Shown one piece after another: positions 2,336 through 38,561 of a stretch of 64,000 nucleotides of DNA (position 1 is the first letter of the stretch; the number at the start of each line of letters is the position of its first letter). Below the pieces are notes generated by a model. That model was not told the DNA's origin and did not search any database. It saw nothing but the letters and a program-made list of their open reading frames with translations. Made by a program: the position numbers and the translations under genes. Origin of the DNA: an uncultured Acidobacteriota bacterium (GTDB lineage: Bacteria; Acidobacteriota; Terriglobia; Acidiferrales; UBA7541); the NCBI GenBank assembly GCA_963804535.1, contig CAWDQT010000011.1, positions 26,011 to 90,010 on the forward strand, in the 5' to 3' direction.

Positions 2336-3908
2336 ATGGCTCTGCCTGATTTTGCTGTTGTGATTTTGGCTGCCGGTAAGGGGACGCGCCTGAAGTCCTC
2401 GCTCGCCAAGGTTTTGCATCGCGCAGGCGGGCGCACCCTCATCGAACACGTCGTCCGGGCCTGTCAGCCTCTGAAGCCGCGCGCGATTATTGCCGTCGTC
2501 GGACATCAGTCCGACGATGTTTCGGCGATTCTCGAACCATTTGGTGTACAGGCTATCGTCCAGCAGCCGCAGCGTGGGACGGGCCACGCCATGCTAGTCG
2601 CGCGGCGGGCGCTTGGCAGGCGCACCAAATACGCGATCGTGCTGCCCGGCGACGCGCCTTTGGTCCGGCCAGAAACGCTGTCAGAACTTGCCCGCATCCA
2701 CCGGCAAAGCAGCGCTGCGGCCACAATTCTGTCCGCCCAGATACCGCAACCGGCCGGCTACGGGCGCATTGTTCGCCGGGACGACGGCAGCGTCGACGCC
2801 ATCGTCGAGGATTCCGCGCTCACCGACGATCAGCGCAGCATCAACGAAATCAATTCGAGTATTTACGCCTTCACGCTGGATAAGCTTTGGCCTTGTCTCG
2901 CCCGCCTTCGCCCCGACAATGCGCATCGCGAGCTTTACCTCACCGACGCCATTGCCATGCTGCGCTCGCAGGGCGATGCCGTCCAAGCTGTTGTTGCGGC
3001 GGACGCCGATGAAGTGCTTGGCTGCAATACCCGCGCCGATTTGGCCGCCGTGGACTTGGCTTTCCGCCGCCGCAAGCGCGCCCAACTGATGGCCGCCGGC
3101 GTGAGCATGCTGATGCCGGAATCGATCTTGATCGATCCGGACGTGACTGGTCGGCGCGGACACGCTTCTCGAACCCGGAGTGCAATTGCTCGGCAAATCG
3201 CGCATCGGCGCGAGTTGCACGATCCGCACCGGAAGCCTCCTGAGTGACGTCACCATAGAAGACGGCGTTCTGGTGAAGCCTTATTCCGTGATCTCCTCGA
3301 GCTATCTTTCGGCGGAGACTCAGGTCGGCCCATTCGCCCACCTGCGCGACGATGCGCGCCTGCTCGAAGGTGCCCGCGTGGGGAATTTCGTCGAAGTGAA
3401 GAAGAGTGTGCTTGGAGAGCGCGCCAAGGCCATGCACCTTACCTACCTCGGCGACGCGCGCATCGGCAGCGAAACCAACGTCGGCGCTGGCACCATCACG
3501 TGCAATTACGATGGCGTGAACAAAAATCCCACCACCATCGGCCGTCGCGTTTTCATCGGCAGCGATACGGCGCTGGTAGCTCCCGTAAGAGTCGGAGACG
3601 GCGCCTACATCGGCGCGGGCTCAACGATTACCGAAAATATTCCTGCGGATGCCCTTGCCATCGCCCGCGGCCGCCAGGTCAACAAGCCCGGCTGGGCTGC
3701 GGCGCGCCGACGCAAAATGGCCGCGCCGCGAAGCGCACGCCAAACCGCAAGCCGAAGCGAAAAGCTTCCGCGAAGGCACGCCACCGCTCCCGCGCTCGCT
3801 CGGCGCGCGTTTCCCGCGGCAAAGTCGCCGCCGCGGCCAAGCGCCGAAATAAGGTTTAAACGTAGAGCCGCGGTCTTTAGCGCGGCAGCCTTGGTCTTCG
3901 TATTTTGA
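2336..3908 (+). CDS. glmU: bifunctional GlcNAc-1-P uridyltransferase / GlcN-1-P acetyltransferase, frameshifted as sequenced
   Basis: N-terminal ORF 2336..3247 ('[12 protein letters not shown]') and left-handed beta-helix ORF 3180..3908 ('[13 protein letters not shown]') join if one extra G near 3149 is removed (DPDVT|[15 protein letters not shown]). The C-terminal end is ambiguous (3859 or 3908) because all three frames are open in the basic tail. Confidence 0.85.
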
Positions 3909-4195: not shown

Positions 4196-4913
4196 GTGAC
4201 GAAAATTGGTGTCGTCGTATTTCCCGGATCGAACTGCGATCACGATGCCCTGCACGCTATAAACGAAATCCTTCACATACCGGCCGAGTCCATCTGGCAC
4301 CAATCTCAGGACCTCTCCGGTTTCGACGCCGTGATTTTGCCTGGCGGCTTCTCCTATGGCGATTATCTGCGCACCGGCGCGATCGCCCGCTTTTCGCCGG
4401 TAATGAACGCCATCGCGCGATTCGCCCGTTCCGGAGGGCTCGTCCTCGGCATTTGCAATGGCTTTCAGATTCTCTGCGAAGCCGGGCTTCTGCCCGGCGC
4501 TTTAATGCGCAATCAAGGATTGCGCTTCATCTGCCGTCACGTGCACATTCGCGTGGAAACGACGGCCACTCCGTTTACCTCCGCGGCACCACAGGGGCAA
4601 GTGCTTCGCCTTCCGATCGCGCATGCCGAAGGCAGCTACGTCTGCGATCCCGCCACTCTCGCGGAGCTACGAAACAATGACCAGATCGTTTTCCGCTACT
4701 GCGCGCCCGATGGGCGCCTCGACCCAGCGGCGAATCCCAACGGCTCGCTCGACGCCATTGCCGGCATCTGCAATCGCGAGCGCAACGTGATGGGCATGAT
4801 GCCGCATCCCGAGCGCGCCGCTCGAAGCCGCGCTCGGCTCAACCGACGGCTTGGTCGTCCTCCATTCGCTCGTACAATCTCTCGCGCGGCAACCTGCCGT
4901 CGCCGTGAGCTGA
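4196..4913 (+). CDS. purQ: phosphoribosylformylglycinamidine synthase subunit PurQ (glutaminase), frameshifted as sequenced
   Basis: '[12 protein letters not shown]', 'GICNGFQIL' and 'MMPHPERA' are present. After HPERA the native tail '[20 protein letters not shown]...' continues in the +1 frame to TGA 4911-4913 (extra base about 4820-4823). Confidence 0.88.
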
Positions 4914-4943: not shown

Positions 4944-7277
<2,334 letters not shown>

Positions 7278-7281
<4 letters not shown>

Positions 7282-8815
7282 TCCATCTCGACGACGATCG
7301 GTTTCACGACCACTGCGGTGTCGCTGGCGTCTTCGGTCATCTCGAAGCGGCCAAGCTCGCCTATCTGGGTCTGTATGCTCTTCAGCACCGCGGCCAGGAA
7401 TCGGCGGGCATCGTCTCTTCCGATGGCGTCGACTTGCATCTCGAGAAGGGCATGGGCCTCGTTCAGGAAGTCTTCCAACCGCAAATTCTGGCGCGCCTTC
7501 CGGGAACGGCCGCGGTTGGGTCACACGCGCTACTCGACCGCGGGTGACACGTCGCTTACTGAATGCGCAGCCGATCGTCATCGATTGCAATAAAGGCAAG
7601 CTGGCCTTGGCGCACAACGGCAATCTCACCAACGCCGCCAAATTGCGCCGCAACCTCGAGCATCGCGGCTCGATTTTCCAAACGACCAGCGATACCGAAG
7701 TCATCGTGCATCTCGTGGCTCGCAGCTCGGCCCACAATCTGGAAGGCGCTCTCGGCGACGCGCTCAATCAGGTCGAAGGCGCGTATTCGCTGCTCGTGCT
7801 CACGCGCGATGAGCTTTTCGCCATTCGCGATCCCCGCGGTTTTCGCCCGCTCTGCCTCGGCCGCCTCGGCGACTCCTGGCTGGTAGCCTCGGAGACCACC
7901 GCCTTCGACCTCATCGATGCGCAATACATCCGCGAAATCGAGCCCGGCGAACTGGTGCGCATCTCCCGAGCCGGCGTGGAATCGCTGCACTTCGCTCCGC
8001 AAAAGCAGCATCAGTTTTGCGTCTTTGAACACGTTTATTTCTCGCGGCCTGATAGTCTCGTCTTCGGACGCCCCGTCGATCGCAGCCGCGAGATGCTGGG
8101 CCGCTTGTTGGCTCGCGAACAGCCCGCGGACGCCGATCTCGTCGTGCCTGTGCCGGATTCCGGCGTTCCCGCGGCCATCGGCTACGCGCTCGAATCGGGC
8201 TTGCCCTTTCGCATGGGCTTGATTCGAAATCACTATATCGGCCGCACGTTCATCGAGCCCGAGCAGGCCATCCGCGATTTCGGCGTCAAGCTGAAGCTCA
8301 ATCCCGTGCGCGCGTTGCTCGAAGGCAAGCGCGTCGTCCTGGTCGACGACTCCATCGTTCGCGGCACCACCAGCCGCAAGATCGTGCGCATGATGCGCGA
8401 AGCGGGCGCCACGCAGGTGCATATGCGCATCAGTTGTCCGCCCACGATTTCGCCGTGCTATTACGGCGTCGATACGCCCACGCGCGAGGAACTGCTCGCC
8501 GCGGATGCCTCCTGCATTCGCCCGCGGCTGCCCGAAGGAAGCCGCCTCGATCTTTCCGGCGCCGCTCGTACGCTCGAAGAGATTCGCCTCTTCCTGGACG
8601 CCGATTCGGTCGGCTATCTCTCTCTCGAAAGCCTGCGCCGCGCCGTGAGCGACACCACCGGCAGCTTCTGTACTTCCTGTTACACCGGCTCCTACGTGCG
8701 CGAAAACGTGCAGCTCGAAGTCGGCGTGCCCGCTGGTAGTCGCGAACAAGTTACAGTTCTCGAAGCCGAAGGCCCTAACGAAGGCCAAAGAGAAGGCCCT
8801 AAAGTAAGGCCCTGA
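7278..8815 (+). CDS. purF: amidophosphoribosyltransferase, two frameshifts as sequenced
   Basis: N-terminus 'DHCGVAGVFGH...LYALQHRGQESAGI' lies in ORF 7278..7547, 'GHTRYSTAGDTSL' in a second frame, and 'NAQPIVIDCNKGKLALAHNGNL...' in ORF 7217..8815. Extra bases lie about 7518-7520 and 7558. ATGA overlap with the purL stop. Confidence 0.9.
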
Positions 8816-9802: not shown

Positions 9803-10855
9803 ATGCACATGCGCTATGCCGACGCTGGCGTGGATATCTCTCGCGCCGAACAAGCCAAAGAACGGATTCGCCGCATGGCTTCGCGTACCTTCACCCGCGG
9901 AGTCGTCGGCGGCATCGGAGCCTTCGGCGGGCTGTTTGCTCTCGACGTCAAGCGCTGGCGCGAGCCTGTGCTCGTCTCCAGCACTGACGGCGTCGGCACC
10001 AAGCTGAAAATCGCCGCGGCCACGGGCATTCACTCCAGTGTGGGCGGCGATCTCGTAAACCACTGCGTCAATGACATCCTCACGCTGGGCGCCGAGCCGC
10101 TCTTCTTCCTCGATTATCTGGCCCTCGGCAGCATGGATCCCGACGTCGTCGAGCAACTGGTCGACGGCATCACCCGCGCCTGCCATCAAGCCGATTGCGC
10201 CTTGGTCGGAGGCGAAACGGCCGAACTGCCCGACACCTATGCCCCCGGCGAGTACGATCTTGCCGGCTTCATCGTCGGCGTCGTGGAACGCAGCCGCATC
10301 CCCAAGCCCAGCGCAGTTCACGCCGGCGACGTTCTCCTGGCCTTGCCGTCGCTCGGCCTGCACACGAATGGCTATTCGCTCGCCCGCAAATTGATTTTCC
10401 AGACCGCCGGTTTGGCTACCGACGCCTACGTCGCCGAAGTCGGCAACAAAATCGGCGCCGAGTTGCTGATGCCGCACCGCTGCTATTGGCCCATGCTGAA
10501 AAATATCGTCGCGCAGGGCCTCGTCACCGGCATGGCCCACATCACCGGCGGCGGCATTGCGGGCAACCTGCCGCGCGTTCTGCCGCGCAGTACGCAAGCC
10601 GTCGTCGAGCTCGGCTCCTGGCCTGTGCTGCCCATCTTTTCGTATCTCGCCAAACTCGGGCAGATTGAGCGCGAGGAACTGCTGCGCACGTTCAATCTTG
10701 GTGTCGGCATGATCCTGATCGTTCCGCCCGCCAATCTGCGCGCGGTCGAAACCGAGCTGAAGCGCCGCCGCGAGAAGTACTACCGTATCGGCGAAATCCG
10801 CAACGCCGACTCCCGTAAAGCCCCCATCGTATTCACCGGCTCGCTGCCGATCTGA
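9803..10855 (+). CDS. purM: phosphoribosylformylglycinamidine cyclo-ligase
   Basis: 350-aa ORF with 'YADAGVDI', 'DGVGTKL' and 'GGETAELP'. Confidence 0.92.
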   Translation: MHMRYADAGVDISRAEQAKERIRRMASRTFTRGVVGGIGAFGGLFALDVKRWREPVLVSSTDGVGTKLKIAAATGIHSSVGGDLVNHCVNDILTLGAEPLFFLDYLALGSMDPDVVEQLVDGITRACHQADCALVGGETAELPDTYAPGEYDLAGFIVGVVERSRIPKPSAVHAGDVLLALPSLGLHTNGYSLARKLIFQTAGLATDAYVAEVGNKIGAELLMPHRCYWPMLKNIVAQGLVTGMAHITGGGIAGNLPRVLPRSTQAVVELGSWPVLPIFSYLAKLGQIEREELLRTFNLGVGMILIVPPANLRAVETELKRRREKYYRIGEIRNADSRKAPIVFTGSLPI

Positions 10856-10866
10856 ACTCCGCGCTT

Positions 10867-11349
10867 ATGCTCTCCATCCGCCCCGCCACGATCAAAGACG
10901 CCTCGCTGCTCGCTTCCATGATTCTCGAGCTCGCGCAGTACGAGAAGCTCGATCATGAAGCCGCCGTCACCGCGGAGTCCATCGCCCGCGACGGCTTTGG
11001 CCCGCATCCCAAATTTCGCGCCATCATCGCCGAAGTGGATGGAAAAGCCGCCGGCTATGCCGTGTTCTTCGGGTTCTACTCCACTTTTCAGGGTCGCGCC
11101 GGATTGTTTCTCGAAGATATCTACGTCCGGCCGTCCCTTCGAAAGCAGGGCATCGGCCAGGCTTTGCTCAACTATGTAGCGCGTATCGCCTGGGAGGAAG
11201 ACTACTTCTGCATGCGCTGGGAAGTGCTGGACTGGAATAAGCCCGCCATCGATTTTTATCGCCGCCTCGGCGCCGTCTTCCTCGACGAGTGGAAAGCCGT
11301 CATGCTCATCGGCGACCCCCTCCAAGCCGCCGCCGACTCCGCCAAGTAA
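10867..11349 (+). CDS. GNAT family N-acetyltransferase
   Basis: 160-aa ORF with acetyl-CoA motif 'VRPSLRKQGIGQALL' and 'NKPAIDFYRRLGA'. Confidence 0.8.
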   Translation: MLSIRPATIKDASLLASMILELAQYEKLDHEAAVTAESIARDGFGPHPKFRAIIAEVDGKAAGYAVFFGFYSTFQGRAGLFLEDIYVRPSLRKQGIGQALLNYVARIAWEEDYFCMRWEVLDWNKPAIDFYRRLGAVFLDEWKAVMLIGDPLQAAADSAK

Positions 11350-11397
11350 CTTCGCTTACTTCGCCATCATTGCGCCAGATGGATCTTTAGGGATAAT

Positions 11398-12259
11398 GTG
11401 TATGTGGCGAATATAAGGCGAAATAACAGGATGCCCAGCCCCCTCCAATTCGACGAAATTGGCATCTGGTCCGAGATCAAGCTCGCGATCATACGAGAGT
11501 ACGCAAAAGCCTATTCCACAATCCTTTCAGCACAAACCAACGCGCGCTTCTCTCATGTGTACATCGACGCATTCGCCGGAGCCGGCCAGCACATTTCGAG
11601 ATCCACGCACGAACTCATCCCCGGGAGCCCCCTCAACGCTCTTGCACGTGGAGCCGCGTTTCGATGAGTTCTACCTTATCGACATAAAGCCGGAGAAAAT
11701 CGACAACCTGCGCGAACTAATCGGCGATCGCAAGGACGTCCACCTTCTCCAGGGCGACTGTAACGAGATTCTTTTGCGCGATGTTTTTCCACACGTTCAG
11801 TATGCTGACTATCGTCGCGGCCTGTGTGTACTTGATCCATATGGACTGCATCTCGACTGGAAAGCAATCTCCACGGCAGGGCAAATGAAAACACTGGACG
11901 TTTTCCTCAACTTCCCGGTTCAAGACATGAATCGTAATGTGTTCTGGCGTAACCCTGATCGTGTAGACCAAGCCCAAATCCAGCGAATGAACGCGTTCTG
12001 GGGTGACAAATCCTGGCAGAATATCGCCTACGACACAAAACACAACCTCTTTGGATTTCCTGAAAAGGAACCGAATGAGATCATTGCTGAGGCGTTCCGG
12101 AAGAGATTATCGGAGGTCGCGGCTTTTCGCCACGTTCCTGAGCCGATACCGATGCGAAACTCTACTCGGGCAACTATCTATTACTTATATTTTGCCTCGC
12201 AAAACGAGACCGCCGCAAAAATAGCGCGTCAGATTTTCGCCAAGTATCGGAGTCAATAA
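11398..12259 (+). CDS. tcmP: three-Cys-motif partner protein (TcmP-like, methyltransferase-like fold), frameshifted as sequenced
   Basis: ORFs 11398..11667 and 11459..12259 join near 11625-11650 ('GSPLNAL|HVEPRFDEFYLIDI'). SAM-MTase-like motifs 'YIDAFAGAG' and 'VLDPYG' are present. Alternative start is ATG 11431. The family name is from memory of NCBIfam TIGR04474. Confidence 0.6.
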
Positions 12260-13085
12260 TGTCGGCAGAATCTTCCATTGAATGGACGGACGCCACGTGG
12301 AACCCAGTTCGAGGCTGTACCAAGATCGGCCCCGGCTGCACCCATTGCTATGCAGAAACGTTCGCGGAGCGATTCCGGGGCGTGAAAGGACACCCCTACG
12401 AGCAAGGATTTGACCTTCGCCTCGTCCCCAACAAGCTTTGTGAACCCCTTCGCTGGCGCACGCCCAAAATGATCTTCGCCAATTCAATGAGTGATCTGTT
12501 TCATGAGCAGGTGCCGGAGGACTACATCCTTGCAGTCGCGAGGGTAATGGTGGCGGCCAACTGGCACACTTATCAGGTTTTGACGAAGCGCTCCGAACGC
12601 CTCCGTGAACTTCTTAATACAAAATTGTCATTCGCTGCGAAACAGCCGCATATCTGGTGGGGAGTCAGCGTCGAGAATCGCATGTACGGCTTTCCCCGCC
12701 TGCGGGACTTGCAGCTCGCAGAAGCGTCTACCCGATTCCTCTCGGTCGAACCGCTGCTCGAAGCTCTCGGAAGCCTTGATTTAACCGGCATCGATTGGGT
12801 GATCGTAGGAGGCGAAAGCGGTCCGGGCGCCACGGCCAATGCAAACAGAATGGGTCACTTCCATTCGAGATCAATGCAAGAAGGCGGAGGTTCCGTTTTT
12901 TCTTCAAGCAATGGGGTGGGGTACGAAAGTCGCTCGCCGGCAGAAAGCTTCAAGGACGGACATACGACGAGTTTCCCCGCCGCGTAGAACATCCCGTCGC
13001 CCCAGCCAATAAATGCATGGCTTTAATCTCCCAAATCGAACCCCAGTTCCTAAAGGAGCGGGATCTTCAATCTGCATTTTGCTAG
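12259..13085 (+). CDS. DUF5131 / phage Gp37-Gp68-like three-Cys protein, two frameshifts as sequenced
   Basis: N-terminus 'IEWTDATWNPVRGCTKIGPGCTHCYAE' (C-x7-C-x2-C) and 'VGGESGPGA'. The sequence then reads 'RPMQTEWVTSIRDQCKKAEVPFF' in the +1 frame (extra A at 12842) and 'FKQWGGVRKSLAGRKLQGRTYDEFP' in the next frame (T-run 12896-12901). Its start overlaps the tcmP stop. Confidence 0.65.
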
Positions 13086-13156
13086 AACTAGGTTCGTTCG
13101 AACTCCAAGGTAAATGTTTTCCACTTCGTTCGAATGACTCAGATAGTAAATAGTAA

Positions 13157-13185
13157 TTGACTGCTCAGTACTTACTTGTTATAAT
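13157..13185 (+). promoter_or_regulatory. near-consensus sigma70-type promoter with no obvious downstream gene
   Basis: TTGACT (13157-13162), 17-nt spacer, TATAAT (13180-13185). Confidence 0.45.
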
Positions 13186-13364
13186 CACACATGTTTGCCC
13201 CGAGCCAGACCTCTGCCTCTCGACTGCCCCTTTTATCCAAGCTTGCTCACACGGCGCTGTCCGCCCCTGACCGGCCGCCTGAAGTTTTCTCCTCGCCAAC
13301 GAACAGAGCTACAAATCCGCCGCTTGCGTACGACCGCCAGATCGTCAGACCTAAACCCATTGGA

Positions 13365-13520
13365 ATGAACACTTGCACAAAAAAGGGGGGGGGGGGAGGT
13401 TTCGAGAGTGATTTGGATAGGAACTTCTGTGCCTCCCATAACTCTCTTGGAATCATACTCTTGCACAAAAACAATGAACAACTCCCATGAAATCATACTC
13501 TTTCAAAAAAACCGGGGGGT
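13365..13520. repeat. three degenerate copies of an about 25-nt unit ending in an A-run plus G-run, including a G12 homopolymer
   Basis: 'gaatgaacacttgcacaaaaaagggggggggggg' (13365-13396), 'gaatcatactcttgcacaaaaac' (13450-13472) and 'gaaatcatactctttcaaaaaaaccgggggg' (13489-13519). Confidence 0.55.
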
Positions 13521-13851
13521 GAGGGTGCCCCTGAAGCTCTACTTGAAGTCCTGAGTTTCCGGCTGGCGACGGGGTTGCCAGCATGATTTGCTCGCGAGAA
13601 AAAATGACGTGCTCTCAACCGCCAGCTCCGATTTTGACAACCCGTGCTAGTGGCATCGCGGCACGCGCGGCGACGGTAAGGGCATATGCTCCGCGAGTCT
13701 ATGCAACCCACACGAGCTGAGACGCCGCCGTGAGTTTATCGTGAGCGGAATTTATAAACTTGACACGCCAATCGCAGTGAGTGGATCATACGGCCATAAA
13801 TTCACTCTCTAGGGAAATAACTTGGCAACATCGCAGATGCTGAGAAGGCAT

Positions 13852-14923
13852 ATGAATTTTCTCTCATCCAAGCCGCGGCTGATACGCATCGTGTCGATGC
13901 TGCTTTTCCTGGGAGCGAGTGGGATCAGTGCGGTTTGCCTGCGCGCAGGAAAACCGCGGCCGCCAAGGCGCTGCAAATAGTGCTCGACAAAGTGGAAGCC
14001 CCAACGCGGGCGAGGTCCACATCCTGCCTGTTCAAGGCAATATCAGCATGCTCGTAGGCGCCGGTGGCAACATCACCGTGCAGGCAGGAGATGAGGGAAT
14101 CCTGTTAGTGGATAGTGGCGTGGCCGCGATGAGCGATAAGGTGCTGGAAGCGATCCGGCCTTTATCGAAAAGGCCCCTGGTTTACATCATTAATAGTGAC
14201 GACCGGCTCGATCACATAGGCGGCAACGAAAATCTCGGCAAGGAAGGCCGGCCCGTTCCCACAGACTCGCAGCGATACGCCGTCACAGACCGAGTTGCAG
14301 CCTCGCATGCCTATATCATTTCATTTCAGACCGTTCTGGATAGGATGAGCGCGCCGACCGGCCAAGCTAGTGCCATGCCCCAAGAGGCCTGGCCAAACGA
14401 TACGTACTCAGTGCCTCAGAAGAATCTCTATTTCAACGGCGAAGCTGTGGAGATATTTCACCAGCCGGCGACGACTGATGGCAACAGCATCGTGCTGTTT
14501 CGCCGTTCCGACGTGATCAGCGCGGGCGATATCTTCGATCCCGCGGAATATCCCATCATCGACGTGAAGAACGGCGGAAGCATTCAGGGCGTCCTCGACG
14601 GTTTGAATCGCCTGAAGGAGATGGTCATCCCGGCGGACCACCAGGAAGGCGGCACTCTGATAATCCCCGGTCATGGAAGGCTGAGTGATGCCGCCGATTT
14701 GGCTGTCTATCAGCAAATGGTCACCATCGTTCGAGACCGCCTGAAGGACATGATCAAGCGAGGCATGACGCTCGAGCAGGTGAAGGCGGCTCAACCGACG
14801 CGGGATTACGATCCGATCTATGGCAGCACTACAGGCAGTTGGACAACGGATATGTTTATTGAGGCGGCATACAAGAGCCTCAGCGGCAAACAGCAAACTT
14901 CACAGAGCCATGGAGCGAACTAG
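13852..14923 (+). CDS. secreted MBL-fold metallo-hydrolase, N-terminal frameshift as sequenced
   Basis: The body ORF 13919..14923 has a 'DHIGGNENL' metallo-beta-lactamase His motif. The signal peptide 'MNFLSSKPRLIRIVSMLLFLGASGISAV' starts at ATG 13852 (RBS 'gaagg') in the -1 frame. One extra base lies about 13937. Confidence 0.75.
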
Positions 14924-14989
14924 GAGCCATTCAGCCGGCGATTTTTCAAGGGCCCAGGGATTCTCTGACGCGCGTACCAGGAGAGGGTT

Positions 14990-15382
14990 ATGAAACGCAC
15001 ATTGGCAATCTTGTTGGGAGTTGTGACATTACTGACGGCGGGCAGCAGTCAGCTCCTCGCTCATCATGCTTTTTACTCGGTCTACGACCGCGAAAAAACT
15101 GTAAAGATCGAAGGAACGCTGAAAGAGTTCATCTGGCGCAATCCGCATTCTTTCGTCAGGGTGGAAGCCCCGGACGAAAAGGGAGATGTGCAGAGCTGGG
15201 TGATCGAATGGGCGGCGCCTGCGCAATTGACCGAGAAGGGCGTATCCAGTGCCACGCTTCGCCCTGGCGATAAGATCGTCATTACGGGCCACCCCGGGCG
15301 CGTCGCTGAAAACCATAGGCTCCAACTGATGAAGGTGGAGCGGCCGTCGGACGGCTTTAAGTGGGAAGGTAACATTCAGTAA
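14990..15382 (+). CDS. small secreted protein, DUF6152-like, copy 1 (predicted mature N-terminus His-His)
   Basis: 130 aa. Signal peptide ends 'SQLLA|HHAFYSVYD', with conserved 'W.NPH' ('WRNPHSF'), 'WVIEW' and 'LRPGDKIVITG'. Confidence 0.8.
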   Translation: MKRTLAILLGVVTLLTAGSSQLLAHHAFYSVYDREKTVKIEGTLKEFIWRNPHSFVRVEAPDEKGDVQSWVIEWAAPAQLTEKGVSSATLRPGDKIVITGHPGRVAENHRLQLMKVERPSDGFKWEGNIQ

Positions 15383-33924: not shown

Positions 33925-34911
33925 CTATTGCTTACCGCCGTACCACTCATAGAACTTATCACCGGACGGCACCTTGCGGGTGATATCGACCGCCATGGTT
34001 TCGCCTTCCCAGTGCTTCACCAACTGCTGCTTGCGAAGACCTCCGTACATGAACTCTTCGACGAATTCATTGCAGCGAAACTCGAGAAGCTGCATGTTCG
34101 GTTCCACGCGGCGATAGAGCGGCATGGCGATCCGCCAGGGCCGCGTAAAAACCTTCGGGTCTTCGATCGTCACTTCGTAACGAATGATATCAGGCGACAT
34201 CAGCGTGAAGCGCTCGGTAAGGTGCAGCGCGTCGCTATGGAAATTGCCGGCGCGGTCAAACCAGCTGCGGTCGTTGAAATTTGTGACGTCGACGACGAGC
34301 GTGTCTCCATCCCAATGTCCGACGGAGTGGCCCATCCAGGTGTCATCGGGCGGCCCTGCGACCTTGTCCAAATGGATCGTGCGCGCCGTATTCGAGAATT
34401 CGTAGGCCATGTGAATCTTGTTCGTGCCTTGCGTGATCTGGAAGGGATAAGGCATGTACATCGCGCGCGGAATGCCCGGCAGGTAACACTTCAGTTCCGG
34501 GTCGCGGTCAATCCAATGTTCCGCGTTGTCTTTCTTCATCAGCAAAGCTTCCGGCTTGTAGGGGATTTGCCCGTCGCCCTGCACCACGCCGAGCGATCCG
34601 GGTACCGCGCCCGCGGCGCCCAGCGCGAGAACCGGAGCTGCGGGCACTCGCGCGTAGTCGTAAGGATAAACGCCCGGCTGCGTGACTGCGGCGGGAAGCG
34701 CCGCATGCGCCTGCAAATCCCAGTTGGCCTCGTTATTGGCTTCCCAGATGCCGCTGAAGTTAGGCTTGCCGCCGACGCGGGCTGGCCGCGCCGCGGGAGC
34801 GGCCGGAGCCTGAGCCGACGTGCGCGTGATGGACACGGAGACGATCGCGCCGACTGCAGCCGCGGCAATGGCGACCGTTATCATCGAACCTGAGAATCGG
34901 CCGCGCATCAT
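33925..34911 (-). CDS. secreted lipocalin-like family protein (short form)
   Basis: 328 aa with 'KPNFSGIWEA', 'LKCYLPGIPR', 'MGHSVGHWDGDTLVVDVTNFNDRSWFDRAGNFHSDALHLTERF' and 'EDPKVFTRPW'. Confidence 0.88.
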   Translation of the reverse strand: MMRGRFSGSMITVAIAAAAVGAIVSVSITRTSAQAPAAPAARPARVGGKPNFSGIWEANNEANWDLQAHAALPAAVTQPGVYPYDYARVPAAPVLALGAAGAVPGSLGVVQGDGQIPYKPEALLMKKDNAEHWIDRDPELKCYLPGIPRAMYMPYPFQITQGTNKIHMAYEFSNTARTIHLDKVAGPPDDTWMGHSVGHWDGDTLVVDVTNFNDRSWFDRAGNFHSDALHLTERFTLMSPDIIRYEVTIEDPKVFTRPWRIAMPLYRRVEPNMQLLEFRCNEFVEEFMYGGLRKQQLVKHWEGETMAVDITRKVPSGDKFYEWYGGKQ

Positions 34912-34935
34912 GTCCTCCTCTTGCTCCTGTCGTCG

Positions 34936-36171
34936 CTACTGCAACGGATCGTCTTCGACGCCCACAAAATCCGTGGCGTTGTCGCTTATTCCCGGGTCGG
35001 GACCTTGTCCCTCCGCAAAGGCGGCCTCTGCCATGCGCTGTCCGCGCATCAAGCCCGGGGAAGCATAGTTTCCTTCGATGCAGCGAGGCTCGTAATAAAT
35101 TCGGTTCTCCTGCTCGCTCTGCCTGGTGAACTCCTGCTTGACGGTCCATGGCCGCGTCCACACGGTCGGATCTTCGATCGTGACCACGTATTCGAGCGTG
35201 TTCGGCCCGGTGCGCGTCCAGCGCTCCACCAGGTGCAGGTTTTCCCGCGAACCCTGGTAATCGGTCTTTGGACTGAAGTTCGTCACGTCGATGACCAGCG
35301 TGTTGCCTTCCCAGTGACCGCGCGAATCGCCATACCACTGGCGGATATTGGCCGGCAAGTGCGGGCTTCCGTTCATAACGATATTTCGCTGCCAGCCTTG
35401 TCCCTGACCGACGTCGTAGAACATCGAGATGCCGCCGGGCGTCTGCACAATGCGGCGGAAGCTGCCGGTCGCGCCTCCGAATTCGGGCAGCCCGCCGGTC
35501 AGGCAGCGGTCCGGCAACGCGCCATCCTCCGGATTATCACGGCGATTCATGCGCGCCGTGTTGTAGCGGGGAGGAGGCTCGGCAAATCGCGGCGAGGGCG
35601 TCGGATCGTATTTCCCGCCGGCACATGCCACCGACTTGTTCTTGCAAGTCTGCGTCGCTTGCAGCAGTGCGAGACGAAATTCCCGCTCGGCGGCGGCCAT
35701 CTTCTGTGCCTCCGGCGTGAGCGGCGGGATTCGGCCGTTGGGCGGATCCACAATCAGCGACGTCCGCGCACCGGTGTGCTTGACGGACATAAACTGCGCG
35801 TTATAGGCGCCGGCGACGTCGAGCTCGGTGCCGCGCTCCACACGCCTGTCCCGGCCGAGCAGCGCCGCTCGTTCTTTGTCCAATTCGGCCCGCTGCGCTT
35901 CGGTGAAAAATTCCTGGTTCGCATACTTGGGAGAGCGCTGCAACGGCGTGTCCGATTCGTCGGTCCAGATGCCTTGCAGATCCGGTTCACCCCACGGCGT
36001 TTTCAGCGCTGGAGCTGTCGCCGACGACTTCGCTGAAGCAGTGTGCGCCGTTGCGGAAGCCGTTTGAGTCTGCGCCGACGTACGCGTGATGGATACGGAA
36101 ATGATCGCGCCGGCCGCAGCCGCGGCAATGGCGAGAGTTATCATGGAGCGTGAAAACCGGTCGCGCATCAT
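34936..36171 (-). CDS. secreted lipocalin-like family protein (long form), tandem copy 2
   Basis: Start ATGATG 36171 after 'aggagg'. 'LKTPWGEPDLQGIW', 'YGDSRGHWEGNTLVIDVTNFSPKTDYQGSRENLHLVERW' and 'EDPTVWTRPW'. It ends 'SDNATDFVGVEDDPLQ'. Confidence 0.88.
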   Translation of the reverse strand: MMRDRFSRSMITLAIAAAAAGAIISVSITRTSAQTQTASATAHTASAKSSATAPALKTPWGEPDLQGIWTDESDTPLQRSPKYANQEFFTEAQRAELDKERAALLGRDRRVERGTELDVAGAYNAQFMSVKHTGARTSLIVDPPNGRIPPLTPEAQKMAAAEREFRLALLQATQTCKNKSVACAGGKYDPTPSPRFAEPPPRYNTARMNRRDNPEDGALPDRCLTGGLPEFGGATGSFRRIVQTPGGISMFYDVGQGQGWQRNIVMNGSPHLPANIRQWYGDSRGHWEGNTLVIDVTNFSPKTDYQGSRENLHLVERWTRTGPNTLEYVVTIEDPTVWTRPWTVKQEFTRQSEQENRIYYEPRCIEGNYASPGLMRGQRMAEAAFAEGQGPDPGISDNATDFVGVEDDPLQ

Positions 36172-36196
36172 CTCCTCCTGAATCTTCCGCGATGCC

Positions 36197-37402
36197 TCAC
36201 TGCAACGGATCGTCTTCAACGCCGACAAAGTCCGTGGCATTGTCACTTAACGCCGGATCAGGACCTTTCCCCTGCGCAAAGGCGCGGTCTGCCATACGCG
36301 CTGACAGCATCAGCGAGGGGAGAGCATAGTTTCCTTCGACGCAGCGCGGCTCGTAATAAATTTTGTTTTCCTGCTCGCTCTGCTTGGTGAACTCTTGCTT
36401 GACGGTCCACGGCCGCGTCCACACGGTCGGATCTTCGACGGTGACCACGTATTCGAGCGTGGTTGGCCCCTTTCGCGTCCAGCGTTCGACCAGATGCAGG
36501 TTCTCGCGCGAGCCCCGAAAGTCCGTTTTCGGGCTGAAGTTCGAAACGTCGATCACGAGCGTATTGCCTTCCCAATGGCCGCGCGAATCGCCAAACCACT
36601 GGCGGATGCTCGGCGGCAAGTGCGGGCTTCCATTCATGACGATGTTTCGCTGCCAGCCTTGCCCCTGGCCGACATCGTAGAACATCGCGATGCCGCCCGG
36701 CGTCTGCACGATTCGGCGGAAGCTCCCACCGTAGGCTGTTCCAAATTCGGGCAACCCGCCGGTCAGGCAACGGTCCGGCAACGCTCCGTCCTCCGGCCCA
36801 TCGTGGCGATTCATGCGTGCCGTGTTGTAGCGAGCGGGAAGCTCGGCGCGGCGCGTCGAAGGCGTGGGATCGTATTTGCCGCCTTCACAGGCCACCGACT
36901 TGTTCTTGCAGGTTTCGGTAGATTGCAGCAAGGCGAGACGTAACGCCCGGTCCGCAGCGGCAATCTTCTGCGCCTCCGGCGTCAGCGGCGGAATCCGGCC
37001 GTTCGGCGGATCGACAATCAGCGACGTGCGCACGCCCGTGCGCTTGATGGACATAAACGCCGCATTATACGCGCCGGCGACGTCGAGCTCTGTGCCGCGC
37101 TCCACGCGCTTATCGCGCCCGAGCAGCGCCGCTCGCTCTTTATCCAATTCGGCCCGTTGCGCCTCGGTGAAAAATTCCTGGTTCGCATACTTGGCGGGAC
37201 GCTGTAAGGGAGTGTCGGATTCGTCCATCCAAATGCCCTGCAGATCCGGTTCGCCCCACGGCGTTTTCAGCGTTGGGGCTGCCGCCGTCGCGGAAGCCGT
37301 CGGACCCTCTTGCGCGACCGTCACCTGCGCCGGTTTCAAAAACACGAGTGCCGACATGATCGCGGCCAGCGCCACGATGGACTTTAAGAGCCGAGTGCGC
37401 AT
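36197..37402 (-). CDS. secreted lipocalin-like family protein (long form), tandem copy 1
   Basis: 401 aa, roughly 85% identical by eye to 34936..36171, with the same C-terminus 'SDNATDFVGVEDDPLQ'. Confidence 0.88.
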   Translation of the reverse strand: MRTRLLKSIVALAAIMSALVFLKPAQVTVAQEGPTASATAAAPTLKTPWGEPDLQGIWMDESDTPLQRPAKYANQEFFTEAQRAELDKERAALLGRDKRVERGTELDVAGAYNAAFMSIKRTGVRTSLIVDPPNGRIPPLTPEAQKIAAADRALRLALLQSTETCKNKSVACEGGKYDPTPSTRRAELPARYNTARMNRHDGPEDGALPDRCLTGGLPEFGTAYGGSFRRIVQTPGGIAMFYDVGQGQGWQRNIVMNGSPHLPPSIRQWFGDSRGHWEGNTLVIDVSNFSPKTDFRGSRENLHLVERWTRKGPTTLEYVVTVEDPTVWTRPWTVKQEFTKQSEQENKIYYEPRCVEGNYALPSLMLSARMADRAFAQGKGPDPALSDNATDFVGVEDDPLQ

Positions 37403-37586
37403 TTGAGACCTCCCGCTAAACCCAAACGGAGGGGTATTCGAAGACCAGTGCGGTTCGAAACCGCCAGATGTGCGCCATTATCTTCAAGGATCGCGTCACT
37501 GTCCAGAAGATTGAGCGCGCGTGGTTGACGCGACGCTCTTACCTCGCTAACTTATGCGCCGATTACCACAGCAGGAGACCCCGAAT

Positions 37587-38561
37587 ATGCGAATCGGATT
37601 TAACCGCCCGACTGCTTTGATTGCCAGCGCCGCGATTGCCGCCGTGTTTTCTTTGGCTGCCATCCGAATGACCGGCCAGGCGGCCCGCACGACTCAGGCG
37701 ACTCGGCCAGCGCAGGCGACGCGCGCGGCGCGGACTCCTGACGGCCATCCCAACTTGAACGGCATCTGGCAGGCGACTACGACGGCGAATTGGGACCTGC
37801 TGGCTCATACGATGCGTCCGGCCGTCGCGCAGCCCGGTGTATATCCCGATGTGCCCGTGCTGGCCGCTCCAGTTCTGGCGCTCGGCGCGGACGGCGGCGT
37901 TCCGCCCGGCCCCGGCGTCGTGGAAGGCAACGAGATCCCGTACAAGCCCGAAGCCGCGGCGAAAAAGAAAGACAACGCCGAACACTGGCTGGATCGCGAT
38001 CCTGAAGTCCGCTGCTATACGCCCGGAATTCCCCGGGCCATGTACATGCCCTATCCGTTCCGGATCACGCAGGGCACGAACAAAATCGAAATGTCATTCG
38101 AGTTTGCAGGCGCCAGCCGCACCATTCACCTCGATCCTGTTGATCCGCCGCCCGCCGATACCTGGATGGGCCATTCGGTTGGCCACTGGGAAGGCAACAC
38201 GCTGGTCGTCGATGTGAGCCACTTCAACGATCGCACCTGGTTTTCGCGCTCCGGCGATTTCCATAGCGACGCGCTGCACGTCGTCGAGCGCTTTACGCCA
38301 ATTACCCCCGACGCGCTGCGCTACGAGGTCACGATTGAGGATCCGAACGTCTTTACCCGCCCGTGGAAGATGAGCATGGTCCTCTACCGTCAGCTCGAAG
38401 CCAACGCGCAGTTGATGGAATACAAATGCGTTGAGCTGGCGGAGGAAACCTTCCTGGGTCATCTGCGCAAGAAGCAACTCGTGAAGCACTGGGAGGGCGA
38501 CACCATCGTGATCGACGTCACCCGCAAAATCCCGCCGGGCGACAAACTTTACGAACGTTGA
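37587..38561 (+). CDS. secreted lipocalin-like family protein (short form), close paralogue of 33925..34911
   Basis: RBS 'aggaga' before ATG 37587. 'HPNLNGIWQA', 'MGHSVGHWEGNTLVVDVSHFNDRTWFSRSGDFHSDALHVVERF' and 'EDPNVFTRPW'. Confidence 0.88.
   Translation: MRIGFNRPTALIASAAIAAVFSLAAIRMTGQAARTTQATRPAQATRAARTPDGHPNLNGIWQATTTANWDLLAHTMRPAVAQPGVYPDVPVLAAPVLALGADGGVPPGPGVVEGNEIPYKPEAAAKKKDNAEHWLDRDPEVRCYTPGIPRAMYMPYPFRITQGTNKIEMSFEFAGASRTIHLDPVDPPPADTWMGHSVGHWEGNTLVVDVSHFNDRTWFSRSGDFHSDALHVVERFTPITPDALRYEVTIEDPNVFTRPWKMSMVLYRQLEANAQLMEYKCVELAEETFLGHLRKKQLVKHWEGDTIVIDVTRKIPPGDKLYER

What the first reader, a model, noticed from the sequence alone, without database searches (positions are those of the whole stretch)
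11398..13085. TcmP-like methyltransferase-fold protein plus three-Cys DUF5131 (Gp37/Gp68-like) pair in a lower-GC islet
- **Arrangement:** two overlapping genes sit between the pur/GNAT core and a repeat-rich gap. GC is visibly lower than in the flanks.
- **Gene 1:** it has SAM-MTase-like 'YIDAFAGAG' and a DPPY-like 'VLDPYG'.
- **Gene 2:** it has 'GCTKIGPGCTHCYAE' (C-x7-C-x2-C, a likely Fe-S or Zn site), 'VGGESGPGARP' and 'PFFFKQWGG'.
- **Prior knowledge:** the pairing is known only as a conserved co-occurrence (three-Cys-motif protein and partner). To my knowledge it has no demonstrated biochemistry.
- **Context:** the phage origin of the family and the islet context suggest a nucleic-acid modification or anti-phage/anti-restriction role.
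- **Caveat:** both genes are broken by single-base insertions here, which may be sequence errors.
Basis: partly seen in the sequence, partly recalled or inferred. Interest (0 to 1): 0.62.

Follow-up and report, generated by a model that had tools for sequence, protein, structure and literature searches.

The report
SOS-boxed TcmP / DUF5131 radical-SAM gene pair
Two coupled genes, a methyltransferase-shaped protein and a small iron-sulfur "radical SAM"-type enzyme, form a known but never-tested pair; here they sit behind this lineage's DNA-damage (LexA) operator, and their apparent breaks are probably assembly errors.

Summary
Window 11431-12259 encodes a TcmP protein (TIGR04474). Window 12259-13085 encodes a DUF5131 / Gp37-Gp68 three-Cys protein (PF07505). 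The stop and start overlap by 1 nt, and GC is 53.2% against 57.8% for the genome.

- **Frameshifts:** three single-base insertions break the frames at about 11646, 12833 and 12895. They are probably assembly errors.
  - The same kind of window-specific insertion breaks glmU, purQ and purL nearby.
  - Five related sequences lack all three insertions, including three short-read contigs that are 93-97% identical.
  - With the three bases skipped, both genes read intact, and dN/dS is 0.08-0.14, like purM.
- **Status of the pair:** PADLOC lists it as the untested defence candidate PDC-M41. I found no biochemistry in the literature.
- **Folds:** TcmP resembles the rRNA m6A methyltransferase RlmJ. 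DUF5131 weakly resembles spore photoproduct lyase and other radical SAM enzymes.
- **Main addition:** an exact TTCGCC-N5-TTCGCC repeat lies 8 nt before the TcmP start.
  - The same motif sits between -35 and -10 of lexA in 20 of 20 related genomes.
  - It also precedes imuA-like, ku and SplB-like genes.
  - It travels with the cassette in six genomic contexts.

The pair is most likely a DNA-damage-induced, nucleic-acid-acting module. It is a new member of a known, uncharacterised kind.

The parts
11406..11422 (-). Candidate LexA (SOS) operator. It reads TTCGCCTTATATTCGCC on the minus strand and ends 8 nt before the TcmP ATG.
   Evidence: - There are 8 exact TTCGCC-N5-TTCGCC sites in the 3.13 Mb genome, against about 0.6 expected.
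- The same motif lies between -35 and -10 of lexA in 20 of 20 relatives.
- It is conserved at the same position in front of TcmP in G004, G011, G008, L121/122 and L124-126.
11360..11376 (+). Second, degenerate copy of the repeat (TTCGCCATCATTGCGCC, 1 mismatch), just after the GNAT stop.
   Evidence: The equivalent site was found in the orthologous contigs L038-L040. Its function is not assessed.
11431..12259 (+). TcmP gene (three-Cys-motif partner protein, class I methyltransferase fold). It encodes 275 codons once one extra base is skipped.
   Evidence: - TIGR04474 is hit in two frames, and PADLOC PDC-M41A is hit.
- The intact 275-aa orthologue P0001 is 99% identical.
- The AF2 model has pLDDT 93.5, and its best PDB match is RlmJ.
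- Conserved residues include D46-x-F48-x-G-x-G52, D109, N111 and D135-P136.
11644..11646 (+). Site of a single extra base that breaks TcmP. The window reads CTTGCACGTG.
   Evidence: - G004 reads CTTGC-CGTG (Ala). L038, L039 and L040 read CTT-CACGTG (His).
- The window string looks like a blend of these two alleles.
12259..13085 (+). DUF5131 / Gp37-Gp68 three-Cys protein (radical-SAM-type). It encodes 274 codons once two extra bases are skipped.
   Evidence: - PF07505 scores 248.9 bits, and PADLOC PDC-M41B is hit.
- Invariant residues include C20, C27, C30 and G184-x-E186-S-G188.
- The AF2 model has pLDDT 93.2. Its best meaningful PDB matches are spore photoproduct lyase, MiaB and viperin.
- SFLD and RadicalSAM.org list DUF5131 as a radical SAM subgroup (PMC9477430).
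12833..12833 (+). Extra C that breaks DUF5131 (GCCA[C]GGCC).
   Evidence: It is absent from G004, G003, L038 and L039.
12895..12895 (+). Extra G that breaks DUF5131 (TTCC[G]TTTTTT).
   Evidence: It is absent from G004, G003, L038 and L039.

Best explanation
**What it is**
- This is a translationally coupled two-gene cassette. The host is an Acidobacteriota MAG, judging by the source names of close homologues, which place them in Acidoferrales.
- DUF5131 is the conserved catalytic part. It is a small radical-SAM-type enzyme with a C-x6-C-x2-C site, presumed to hold a [4Fe-4S] cluster, and a GGESG motif, presumed to bind SAM.
- TcmP is a fast-diverging, exchangeable partner with an RlmJ-like amino-methyltransferase fold. 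It keeps the SAM-pocket residues (D-x-F-x-G-x-G, D-x-N, D-P-Y-G).

**How it probably works**
- The cassette appears to be repressed by LexA through a TTCGCC-N5-TTCGCC operator that overlaps its start region, so it would be switched on by DNA damage.
- The two proteins then most likely act together on nucleic acid, probably DNA. TcmP would select and present, or methylate, a base. DUF5131 would carry out radical chemistry on it, either repairing or processing a lesion or modifying DNA.

**State of the genes**
- The genes are functional in nature. The three frameshifts in this assembly are most likely consensus errors.

**Shown versus inferred**
- Shown: family membership, gene coupling, predicted-structure (fold) similarity, purifying selection, operator identity with the lexA promoters, and errors of the same kind in essential genes.
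- Inferred: Fe-S and SAM chemistry, DNA as the substrate, LexA binding, and induction by damage.
For: - **Family and catalogue:** HMM hits. PADLOC PDC-M41A/B.
- **Coupling:** a 1-nt stop/start overlap. TcmP directly abuts DUF5131 in every intact locus examined, and in 23 of 80 viral-contig loci.
- **Folds:** the best PDB match for TcmP is RlmJ, with E 3e-7 and TM 0.53-0.56. There is a weak collinear Pfam hit to RlmJ family PF04378, E 0.063. DUF5131 matches spore photoproduct lyase with probability 0.99-1.0 and TM 0.44-0.50, plus MiaB, viperin and AprD4. DUF5131 is listed as a radical SAM subgroup in the same megacluster as spore photoproduct lyase (PMC9477430).
- **Conservation:** DUF5131 has 43 invariant columns. 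TcmP has 1.
- **Divergence and swapping:** across paired loci DUF5131 stays 52-78% identical. TcmP drops to 23-30%, with discordant pairs that suggest partner swapping.
- **Operator, genome-wide:** there are 8 exact sites in the genome against about 0.6 expected. They lie at lexA, TcmP, ku, an SplB-like radical SAM gene, dnaB and an RNase_H_2 exonuclease. A 1-mismatch site lies before an imuA-like gene.
- **Operator, across relatives:** 20 of 20 lexA promoters of relatives carry the motif between -35 and -10. It is retained just upstream of TcmP in six different genomic contexts.
- **Operator period:** its 11-bp period matches the GTTC-N7-GTTC LexA box of Alphaproteobacteria (PMC3091678). The title of Mazon 2006 (reference in PMC3323433) ties the Acidobacterium capsulatum LexA box to an alphaproteobacterial lexA gene.
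- **Frameshifts, same error elsewhere:** the same window-specific single-base insertions split glmU (3150), purQ (4821) and purL (5754). The purL AIRS_C domain is split at profile 2-55 | 59-154.
- **Frameshifts, absent from relatives:** G004, G003 and three short-read contigs lack all three insertions.
- **Frameshifts, genes otherwise intact:** skipping the three bases gives full-length proteins with no other lesion. dN/dS is 0.08-0.14, against 0.12 for purM and 0.17 for GNAT.
Against: - No experiment exists for any member of the pair, in either direction.
- The fold match of DUF5131 to radical SAM enzymes is weak (best E 4e-3). Generic TIM barrels score similarly. Pfam Radical_SAM (PF04055) does not hit.
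- The operator is reversed relative to the gene, compared with lexA. No clear -35/-10 was called in front of TcmP.
- Cassettes in G005, G015, G027, G028 and L127 lack the motif at up to 2 mismatches.
- Three insertions in 1.65 kb is several times denser than the rest of the window. My count is at least 6 in the first 13 kb. An earlier by-eye count was about 19 in 61 kb. Real lesions therefore cannot be excluded without reads.
- Related genomes do show genuine decay of this locus. TcmP is deleted in G003, G012 and G020. DUF5131 carries stop codons in G012 and G020. TcmP is split or truncated in G006, G017 and G021.
Confidence: 0.5

Rival explanations
1. The pair is an anti-phage defence system, PADLOC candidate PDC-M41. 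TcmP would mark or recognise nucleic acid, and DUF5131 would damage or modify invader DNA or RNA. SOS control would be incidental, or a way to fire when prophages induce.
For: - PADLOC-DB models PDC-M41A/B and PDC-M30B hit strongly.
- Distribution is patchy: 19 of 41 relatives carry DUF5131 and 16 of 41 carry TcmP, with up to three pairs per genome in G004.
- GC is lower than the genome average.
- DUF5131 is very common on IMG/VR contigs, with at least 595 stretches.
- Gene order is variable, and partners appear to swap as specificity subunits do.
- In S. meliloti, TcmP SMa2243 is listed next to the Hna defence gene SMa2245 (PMC12445080).
Against: - No phage-challenge result was found in the library.
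- The neighbours here are purM, a GNAT gene and a 334-aa ORF that I did not annotate. They are not defence genes. Other contexts are likewise housekeeping.
- G003 keeps an intact DUF5131 after deletion of TcmP. This speaks against a toxin-plus-protective-methylase logic.
- The cassette shares its operator with lexA, imuA-like, ku and SplB-like repair genes.
Confidence: 0.25
2. The genes are truly dead here. Three real frameshift mutations have turned the cassette into pseudogenes, as part of ongoing loss of this locus in the genus.
For: - Three frameshifts fall in 1.65 kb. None falls in the adjacent lepB, purM and GNAT genes, relative to the 97%-identical contig L038.
- The same locus has decayed in relatives. 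TcmP is deleted in G003, G012 and G020. DUF5131 carries stop codons in G012 and G020. TcmP is split or truncated in G006, G017 and G021.
Against: - Identical-type, window-specific insertions break the essential genes glmU and purL, and also purQ, in the same window.
- There are no other lesions, and all invariant residues are kept.
- dN/dS is as low as in housekeeping neighbours.
- The string at 11644-11646 looks like a blend of two natural alleles.
- The genome is a 41-contig MAG that also carries homopolymer deletions relative to short-read contigs.
Confidence: 0.15
3. The pair is a housekeeping RNA-modification pair. TcmP would be an RlmJ-like rRNA or tRNA m6A methyltransferase, working with a radical SAM RNA-modifying enzyme in the manner of RlmN/Cfr or MiaB.
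For: - The best structural match of TcmP is the 23S rRNA methyltransferase RlmJ.
- MiaB appears among the DUF5131 fold matches.
- A SpoU methylase lies next to one distant pair, L127.
Against: - Presence is patchy and multi-copy, losses are frequent, and the pair occurs on viral contigs.
- The TcmP sequence is far too variable for a conserved RNA target.
- An SOS-type operator lies upstream.
- The best radical SAM fold match is a DNA-repair enzyme.
Confidence: 0.07

Closest known systems
TcmP / three-Cys-motif protein pair (NCBIfam TIGR04474 with Pfam PF07505, DUF5131, 'phage Gp37/Gp68'); PADLOC-DB candidates PDC-M41 and PDC-M30
   Same: - Both HMMs are hit above their cut-offs.
- The genes are adjacent and coupled.
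- The three Cys are invariant.
- This is a straightforward member.
   Different: - There is nothing structural.
- This copy is chromosomal and syntenic within a genus.
- It carries the lineage's LexA-type operator.
- In this assembly it reads as frameshifted.
Spore photoproduct lyase (SplB) and SplB-like radical SAM 'DNA repair photolyases'
   Same: - The predicted partial TIM-barrel fold is similar (probability 0.99-1.0, TM 0.44-0.50).
- Both lie in the same RadicalSAM.org megacluster (5-2 versus 5-3).
- Both have an N-terminal Cys triad and a GGE-like motif.
- In this genome an SplB-like gene carries the same operator.
   Different: - The Cys spacing is C-x6-C-x2-C, not C-x3-C-x2-C.
- DUF5131 is about 70 residues shorter.
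- There is no Pfam Radical_SAM hit.
- Sequence identity is 11-13%.
- It needs, or at least keeps, a methyltransferase-fold partner.
- The substrate is unknown.
E. coli RlmJ (23S rRNA A2030 N6-methyltransferase, Pfam PF04378)
   Same: - The whole-length fold of TcmP matches (E 3e-7, TM 0.53-0.56).
- Motif I (FxGxG type) comes before a D-P-x-Y-type motif IV.
- There is a weak collinear HMM hit.
   Different: - Identity is 13-14%, and the Pfam score is 13 bits against a 27-bit cut-off, so TcmP is not a member.
- TcmP reads D-P-Y-G, one residue shorter than the classical (D/N)PP(Y/F).
- Its distribution is patchy and mobile rather than a housekeeping single copy.
Radical SAM mobile pair protein A (NCBIfam TIGR04471)
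   Same: - The N-terminal 190 residues of DUF5131 give a weak hit (53.6 bits).
- The concept is the same: a small radical SAM protein travelling with a fixed partner.
   Different: The score is far below the 355-bit cut-off, so DUF5131 is not a member.
M. tuberculosis Rv2734 / Rv2735c, downstream of recA-recX
   Same: - Earlier notes of this scan say these are a TcmP/DUF5131 pair.
- Published data show that Rv2735c is co-transcribed with recA-recX (PMC3062782).
- Rv2734, Rv2735c, recX and recA form one mitomycin-C-responsive cluster (PMC5057432).
- This parallels the SOS operator found here.
   Different: - I could not check here that Rv2734 and Rv2735c belong to these families. This is a lead, not a test.
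- Regulation there is through operon position. Here it is through the cassette's own operator.

Membership tests
NCBIfam TIGR04474 (TcmP) | HMM score above the curated cut-off of 53 bits | tested here: met
   The two frames of the broken gene score 59.4 and 125.5 bits, covering profile 2-64 and 66-262. The genome search gave 130.8 bits.
NCBIfam TIGR04474 (TcmP) | Encoded next to a three-Cys-motif (DUF5131) gene | tested here: met
   There is a 1-nt stop/start overlap at 12257-12261. The same adjacency holds in orthologues and distant loci.
Pfam PF07505 (DUF5131, Gp37/Gp68) | HMM score above the gathering threshold of 28.9 bits | tested here: met
   The first frame alone scores 248.9 bits. The intact orthologue scores 328.8 bits over profile 1-243.
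Pfam PF07505 (DUF5131, Gp37/Gp68) | Invariant three-Cys motif near the N-terminus | tested here: met
   C20, C27 and C30 are invariant in 69 sequences. They are present in the window as GCTKIGPGCTHCY.
Radical SAM superfamily | Canonical C-x3-C-x2-C motif and a Pfam PF04055 match | tested here: not met
   The spacing is C-x6-C-x2-C. Only PF07505 is reported, even at E up to 10.
Radical SAM superfamily | Partial TIM-barrel fold similar to solved radical SAM enzymes, plus a GGE-type SAM motif | tested here: inconclusive
   - Spore photoproduct lyase, MiaB, viperin and AprD4 are among the matches, but the best E is 4e-3 and ordinary TIM barrels are interleaved.
- G184, E186, S187 and G188 are invariant.
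- SFLD and RadicalSAM.org list DUF5131 as a subgroup.
Radical SAM superfamily | [4Fe-4S] cluster and reductive cleavage of SAM | not testable with these tools
   This needs anaerobic reconstitution, spectroscopy and a 5'-deoxyadenosine assay.
PADLOC candidate system PDC-M41 | Both component HMMs (M41A, M41B) hit adjacent genes | tested here: met
   PDLC04638 hits at E 1.4e-53 and PDLC04639 at E 1.3e-75.
PADLOC candidate system PDC-M41 | Protection against phage | not testable with these tools
   No published test was found.
RlmJ family (Pfam PF04378) | HMM score above 27 bits | tested here: not met
   The score is 13 bits, E 0.063. Only the fold is similar.
LexA (SOS) regulon of this lineage | Operator of the same form as in the lexA promoter, placed at the gene's start region | tested here: met
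   - An exact TTCGCC-N5-TTCGCC lies at 11406-11422, 8 nt before the ATG.
- 20 of 20 lexA promoters carry it.
- It is conserved before TcmP in six contexts.
LexA (SOS) regulon of this lineage | LexA binding and induction by DNA damage | not testable with these tools
No expression data are available for this organism.
Pseudogene | Frame-breaking lesions specific to these genes, with relaxed selection | tested here: not met
   - The lesions exist, but the same kind breaks glmU, purQ and purL.
- dN/dS is 0.08-0.14.
- No further lesions are present.
- Reads are still needed for a final answer.

The most novel reading that the evidence does not exclude
TcmP-DUF5131 would be a widespread, LexA-controlled DNA-damage enzyme system of a kind not yet described.
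- A near-invariant, spore-photoproduct-lyase-like radical SAM enzyme would perform oxygen-independent radical chemistry on a damaged or modified DNA base.
- That base would be selected by an exchangeable, RlmJ-like methyltransferase-fold subunit.
- The 'defence candidate' label would then reflect its mobility, not its function.
Probability: 0.3. Interest if true: 0.8.

Novelty: new member of a known kind. Interest (0 to 1): 0.38.

Why it matters
- The pair is common in bacteria, archaea and phages. TcmP has more than 3,200 cluster representatives at 50% identity, and DUF5131 has at least 595 viral-contig stretches. Nobody knows what it does.
- This instance adds nothing structurally new. It does supply a clean regulatory clue: the cassette carries the operator that marks lexA, imuA-like, ku and SplB-like genes across a whole order.
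- That clue turns "unknown function" into a specific, cheap experiment. One can test damage induction and damage survival, then run radical SAM assays on DNA. It also argues that defence catalogues may be mislabelling a repair or damage-processing module.
- There is a practical warning too. In this MAG, frameshifts are not evidence of gene death.

Tried and rejected
- **Polarising indels by ORF span, open frames or GC3 phase**: this was too noisy at 58% GC and was abandoned. I used Pfam-split domains, a third genome and short-read contigs instead.
- **tblastn frame-change census against G004**: it shows about 30 relative frameshifts in 58 kb, but it cannot say which MAG is wrong.
- **Classical LexA boxes:** GTTC-N7-GTTC has no match in the window, and GAAC-N4-GTTC has one match, at chance level. 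The lineage's own motif had to be read from its lexA promoter.
- **Sequence search of the PDB:** nothing was found for either protein.
- **Rfam on 10500-15000:** nothing was found.
- **Other scans:** The single-protein TcmP scan of viral contigs found nothing.
- **Programmed frameshifting or recoding:** rejected. There are three unrelated sites, no slippery motif, and all relatives lack the extra bases.
- **A conserved third gene:** none. The downstream genes differ in every context.
Full report
**What is there**

ORF listing and sequence show two adjacent plus-strand genes. [quoted passage not shown] Frame 11398-11664 covers profile 2-64 at 59.4 bits. Frame 11648-12256 covers profile 66-262 at 125.5 bits. 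Pfam PF07505 (DUF5131, formerly phage Gp37/Gp68) matches three frames. Frame 12259-12831 covers profile 1-188 at 248.9 bits, and two short pieces cover profile 191-210 and 209-243.

Gene 1 therefore has one frameshift and gene 2 has two. Comparison with orthologues puts the true TcmP start at ATG 11431, giving 275 aa. The DUF5131 stop is at 13083-13085, giving 274 aa. The TcmP stop and the DUF5131 start overlap by one base (TAATG at 12257-12261).

The pair is 53.2% GC against 57.8% for the genome, which is the 2.5th percentile for windows of that size. No tRNA is present in the window, and no integrase or other mobility gene was seen beside the pair.

**Are the frameshifts real?**

The window belongs to a 41-contig MAG of 3.13 Mb, 78% complete. 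A same-genus genome, G004, is collinear with the window over 58 kb at about 91% identity. It carries both genes intact. G003 carries the same locus with TcmP deleted and DUF5131 intact.

Alignment pins three single-base insertions in the window:
- GC[A]CG at 11646
- CCA[C]GG at 12833
- TCC[G]TTT at 12895

An intact 275-aa TcmP that is 99% identical (P0001) lies on three short-read metagenome contigs. These contigs show the same lepB-purM-GNAT-TcmP-DUF5131 order. They are 93-97% identical to the window and lack all three insertions. At the first site the window string CTTGCACGTG looks like a blend of two natural alleles, CTTGCCGTG (G004) and CTTCACGTG (short-read contigs).

The same window also contains window-specific single-base insertions that break housekeeping genes:
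- glmU at 3150: the nucleotidyl-transferase and hexapeptide domains lie in different frames.
- purQ at 4821.
- purL at 5754: the AIRS_C domain is split at profile 2-55 | 59-154.

These rest. An earlier first-reader note on this genome independently listed about 19 such indels.

With the three bases skipped for codon alignment only, both genes read through with every invariant residue in place. dN/dS against relatives is 0.08-0.14. That matches purM (0.12) and GNAT (0.17).

I conclude, at about 80%, that the frameshifts are consensus errors. Three in 1.65 kb is denser than the window average. Relatives also show true decay of this locus. TcmP is deleted in G003, G012 and G020. DUF5131 carries stop codons in G012 and G020. 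TcmP is split or truncated in G006, G017 and G021.

**What is known about the pair**

PADLOC-DB v2 models PDC-M41A/B, and PDC-M30B, hit both genes strongly. "PDC" marks untested phage-defence candidates. Full-text searches found no biochemistry:
- DUF5131 appears once, as a radical SAM subgroup in SFLD and RadicalSAM.org. It is placed in Megacluster-5-2, beside spore photoproduct lyase in 5-3.
- TcmP appears only in gene tables. One lists it next to the Hna defence gene SMa2245 in S. meliloti.
- PDC-M30 appears only in surveys.
- Neither protein has a sequence relative in the PDB.

**Structure-based inference**

With an alignment of 102 diverse TcmP sequences, AlphaFold2 gave pLDDT 93.5. The best PDB matches are all E. 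coli RlmJ, the 23S rRNA A2030 N6-methyltransferase, over the full length (E 3e-7, TM 0.53-0.56). A sub-threshold collinear Pfam hit to the RlmJ family agrees.

Nearly invariant TcmP residues are those of a SAM pocket and an amino-methyltransferase motif IV: D46-x-F48-x-G-x-G52, D109-x-N111 and D135-P136-Y-G. TcmP probably still binds SAM.

The DUF5131 model, built on the intact orthologue with 69 sequences, has pLDDT 93.2. It is a beta/alpha barrel. Its best meaningful matches are spore photoproduct lyase (probability 0.99-1.0, TM 0.44-0.50), then MiaB, viperin and AprD4. E-values are weak and generic TIM barrels are interleaved. Invariant residues include the three Cys, G184-x-E186-S187-G188, K110-R111, E139, E164 and K216-Q217.

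**Distribution and evolution**

In 41 related genomes, 19 carry DUF5131 and 16 carry TcmP. The two are almost always abutting, and G004 has three pairs. Contexts differ completely between lineages and are housekeeping, with no conserved third gene.

DUF5131 is abundant on IMG/VR contigs, with at least 595 stretches. In the best 80 loci, 23 have an abutting TcmP-like gene. The order is DUF5131-TcmP in 18, TcmP-DUF5131 in 4 and convergent in 1.

Across paired loci DUF5131 stays 52-78% identical to the local protein. TcmP falls to 23-30%. Discordant pairs occur, such as L043 (26% against 70%) and L071 (58% against 52%), so partners appear to be exchanged. This fits a conserved catalytic engine with a variable recognition subunit.

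**The regulatory clue**

Earlier notes of this scan suggested SOS boxes before this pair in other phyla, so I tested this independently here. Classical boxes are absent.

The genome's own lexA promoter reads TTGACG-C-TTCGCCTTTAATTCGCC-TATACT. The region 8 nt before the TcmP ATG holds TTCGCCTTATATTCGCC on the opposite strand, at 11406-11422.

Exact TTCGCC-N5-TTCGCC occurs 8 times in the 3.13 Mb genome, against about 0.6 expected from base composition. The sites are:
- lexA
- TcmP
- ku (double site)
- an SplB-like radical SAM gene (double site)
- dnaB
- an RNase_H_2-type exonuclease
- one site inside a gene, probably chance

A one-mismatch copy precedes an imuA-like RecA-fold gene.

All 20 lexA promoters recovered from genus, family and order relatives carry the motif between -35 and -10. 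The 11-bp period equals that of the alphaproteobacterial GTTC-N7-GTTC box. Mazon et al. 2006 link the Acidobacterium capsulatum LexA box to an alphaproteobacterial lexA gene (reference seen).

The motif is retained at the same place before TcmP in G004, G011, G008, L121/122 and L124-126, which are different chromosomal contexts. It therefore belongs to the cassette. Cassettes of other subtypes (G005, G015, G027, G028, L127) lack it.

Published M. tuberculosis data show Rv2734, Rv2735c, recX and recA as one mitomycin-C-responsive cluster, and Rv2735c co-transcribed with recA-recX. Earlier notes say these two genes are the same pair, but I could not verify that here.

**Verdict**

This is an ordinary, probably intact member of the known but uncharacterised TcmP/DUF5131 pair (PADLOC PDC-M41). 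It is vertically shared within a genus rather than freshly inserted.

Its most likely mode of action is a LexA-repressed, damage-induced two-protein enzyme acting on DNA. DUF5131 would supply radical SAM chemistry, and TcmP would supply SAM-dependent base recognition or methylation.

My rough odds are:
- about 45-50% for a damage-response role
- about 25% for anti-phage defence
- about 7% for an RNA-modification pair

Separately, I put about 15% on the genes being truly dead in this organism.

Novelty is low for the object and moderate for the regulatory lead.

Noticed in passing
window 3150, 4821, 5754, 7521/7559, 20910 and others: Window-specific single-base insertions split glmU, purQ, purL, the gene at 7193-8812 and an alpha/beta hydrolase. 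Relative to G004 there are about 30 frame-changing indels in 58 kb, spread over both MAGs. Gene calls in this assembly need frameshift-aware handling.
   Followed up: partly
G000 C11:105486-105502 (lexA), C2:33884, C7:76013, C8:68323, C9:45880-45907, C19:82294-82340: The candidate LexA operator of this order is TTCGCC-N5-TTCGCC. It lies between -35 and -10 of lexA in 20 of 20 relatives. It also marks an imuA-like gene, ku, an SplB-like radical SAM gene, dnaB and an RNase_H_2 exonuclease.
   Followed up: partly
window 13157-13185 and 13086-13400: A near-consensus sigma-70-type promoter (TTGACT, 17 nt, TATAAT, with TG) lies just after DUF5131. It heads a roughly 300-nt stretch that is as conserved in G003 and G004 as the coding DNA. 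There is no Rfam match and no convincing ORF. It may be a small RNA or a leader.
   Followed up: no
window 13361-13395 (related copies at 13440-13472 and 13480-13512): A dispersed element of about 35 nt (GGAATGAACACTTGCACAAAAAA followed by a G run) has at least 16 copies in this genome and many in every genome of the genus. It resembles, but does not fit, a sigma-54 -24/-12 spacing.
   Followed up: partly
G004:C11:716066-717573, C11:768380-769946, C1:218806-220429; G006:C4:606195-608223; G017:C2:478934-481095: One relative carries three TcmP/DUF5131 pairs in both gene orders. In two others the TcmP profile match is split into two pieces about 1.2-1.4 kb apart. In G003, G012 and G020 TcmP is deleted while DUF5131 remains, intact in G003.
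   Followed up: partly
window about 13393: Synteny with G003 ends at about 13393, inside the repeat-rich gap. G004 stays collinear to 58 kb. The gap is a rearrangement breakpoint in the genus.
   Followed up: no
window 33974-38554: Cross-matching blocks of about 1.2 kb (34808-36042 and 36053-37290, roughly 80% identical to each other's G004 counterparts), plus inverted matches, indicate a tandemly duplicated gene family.
   Followed up: no
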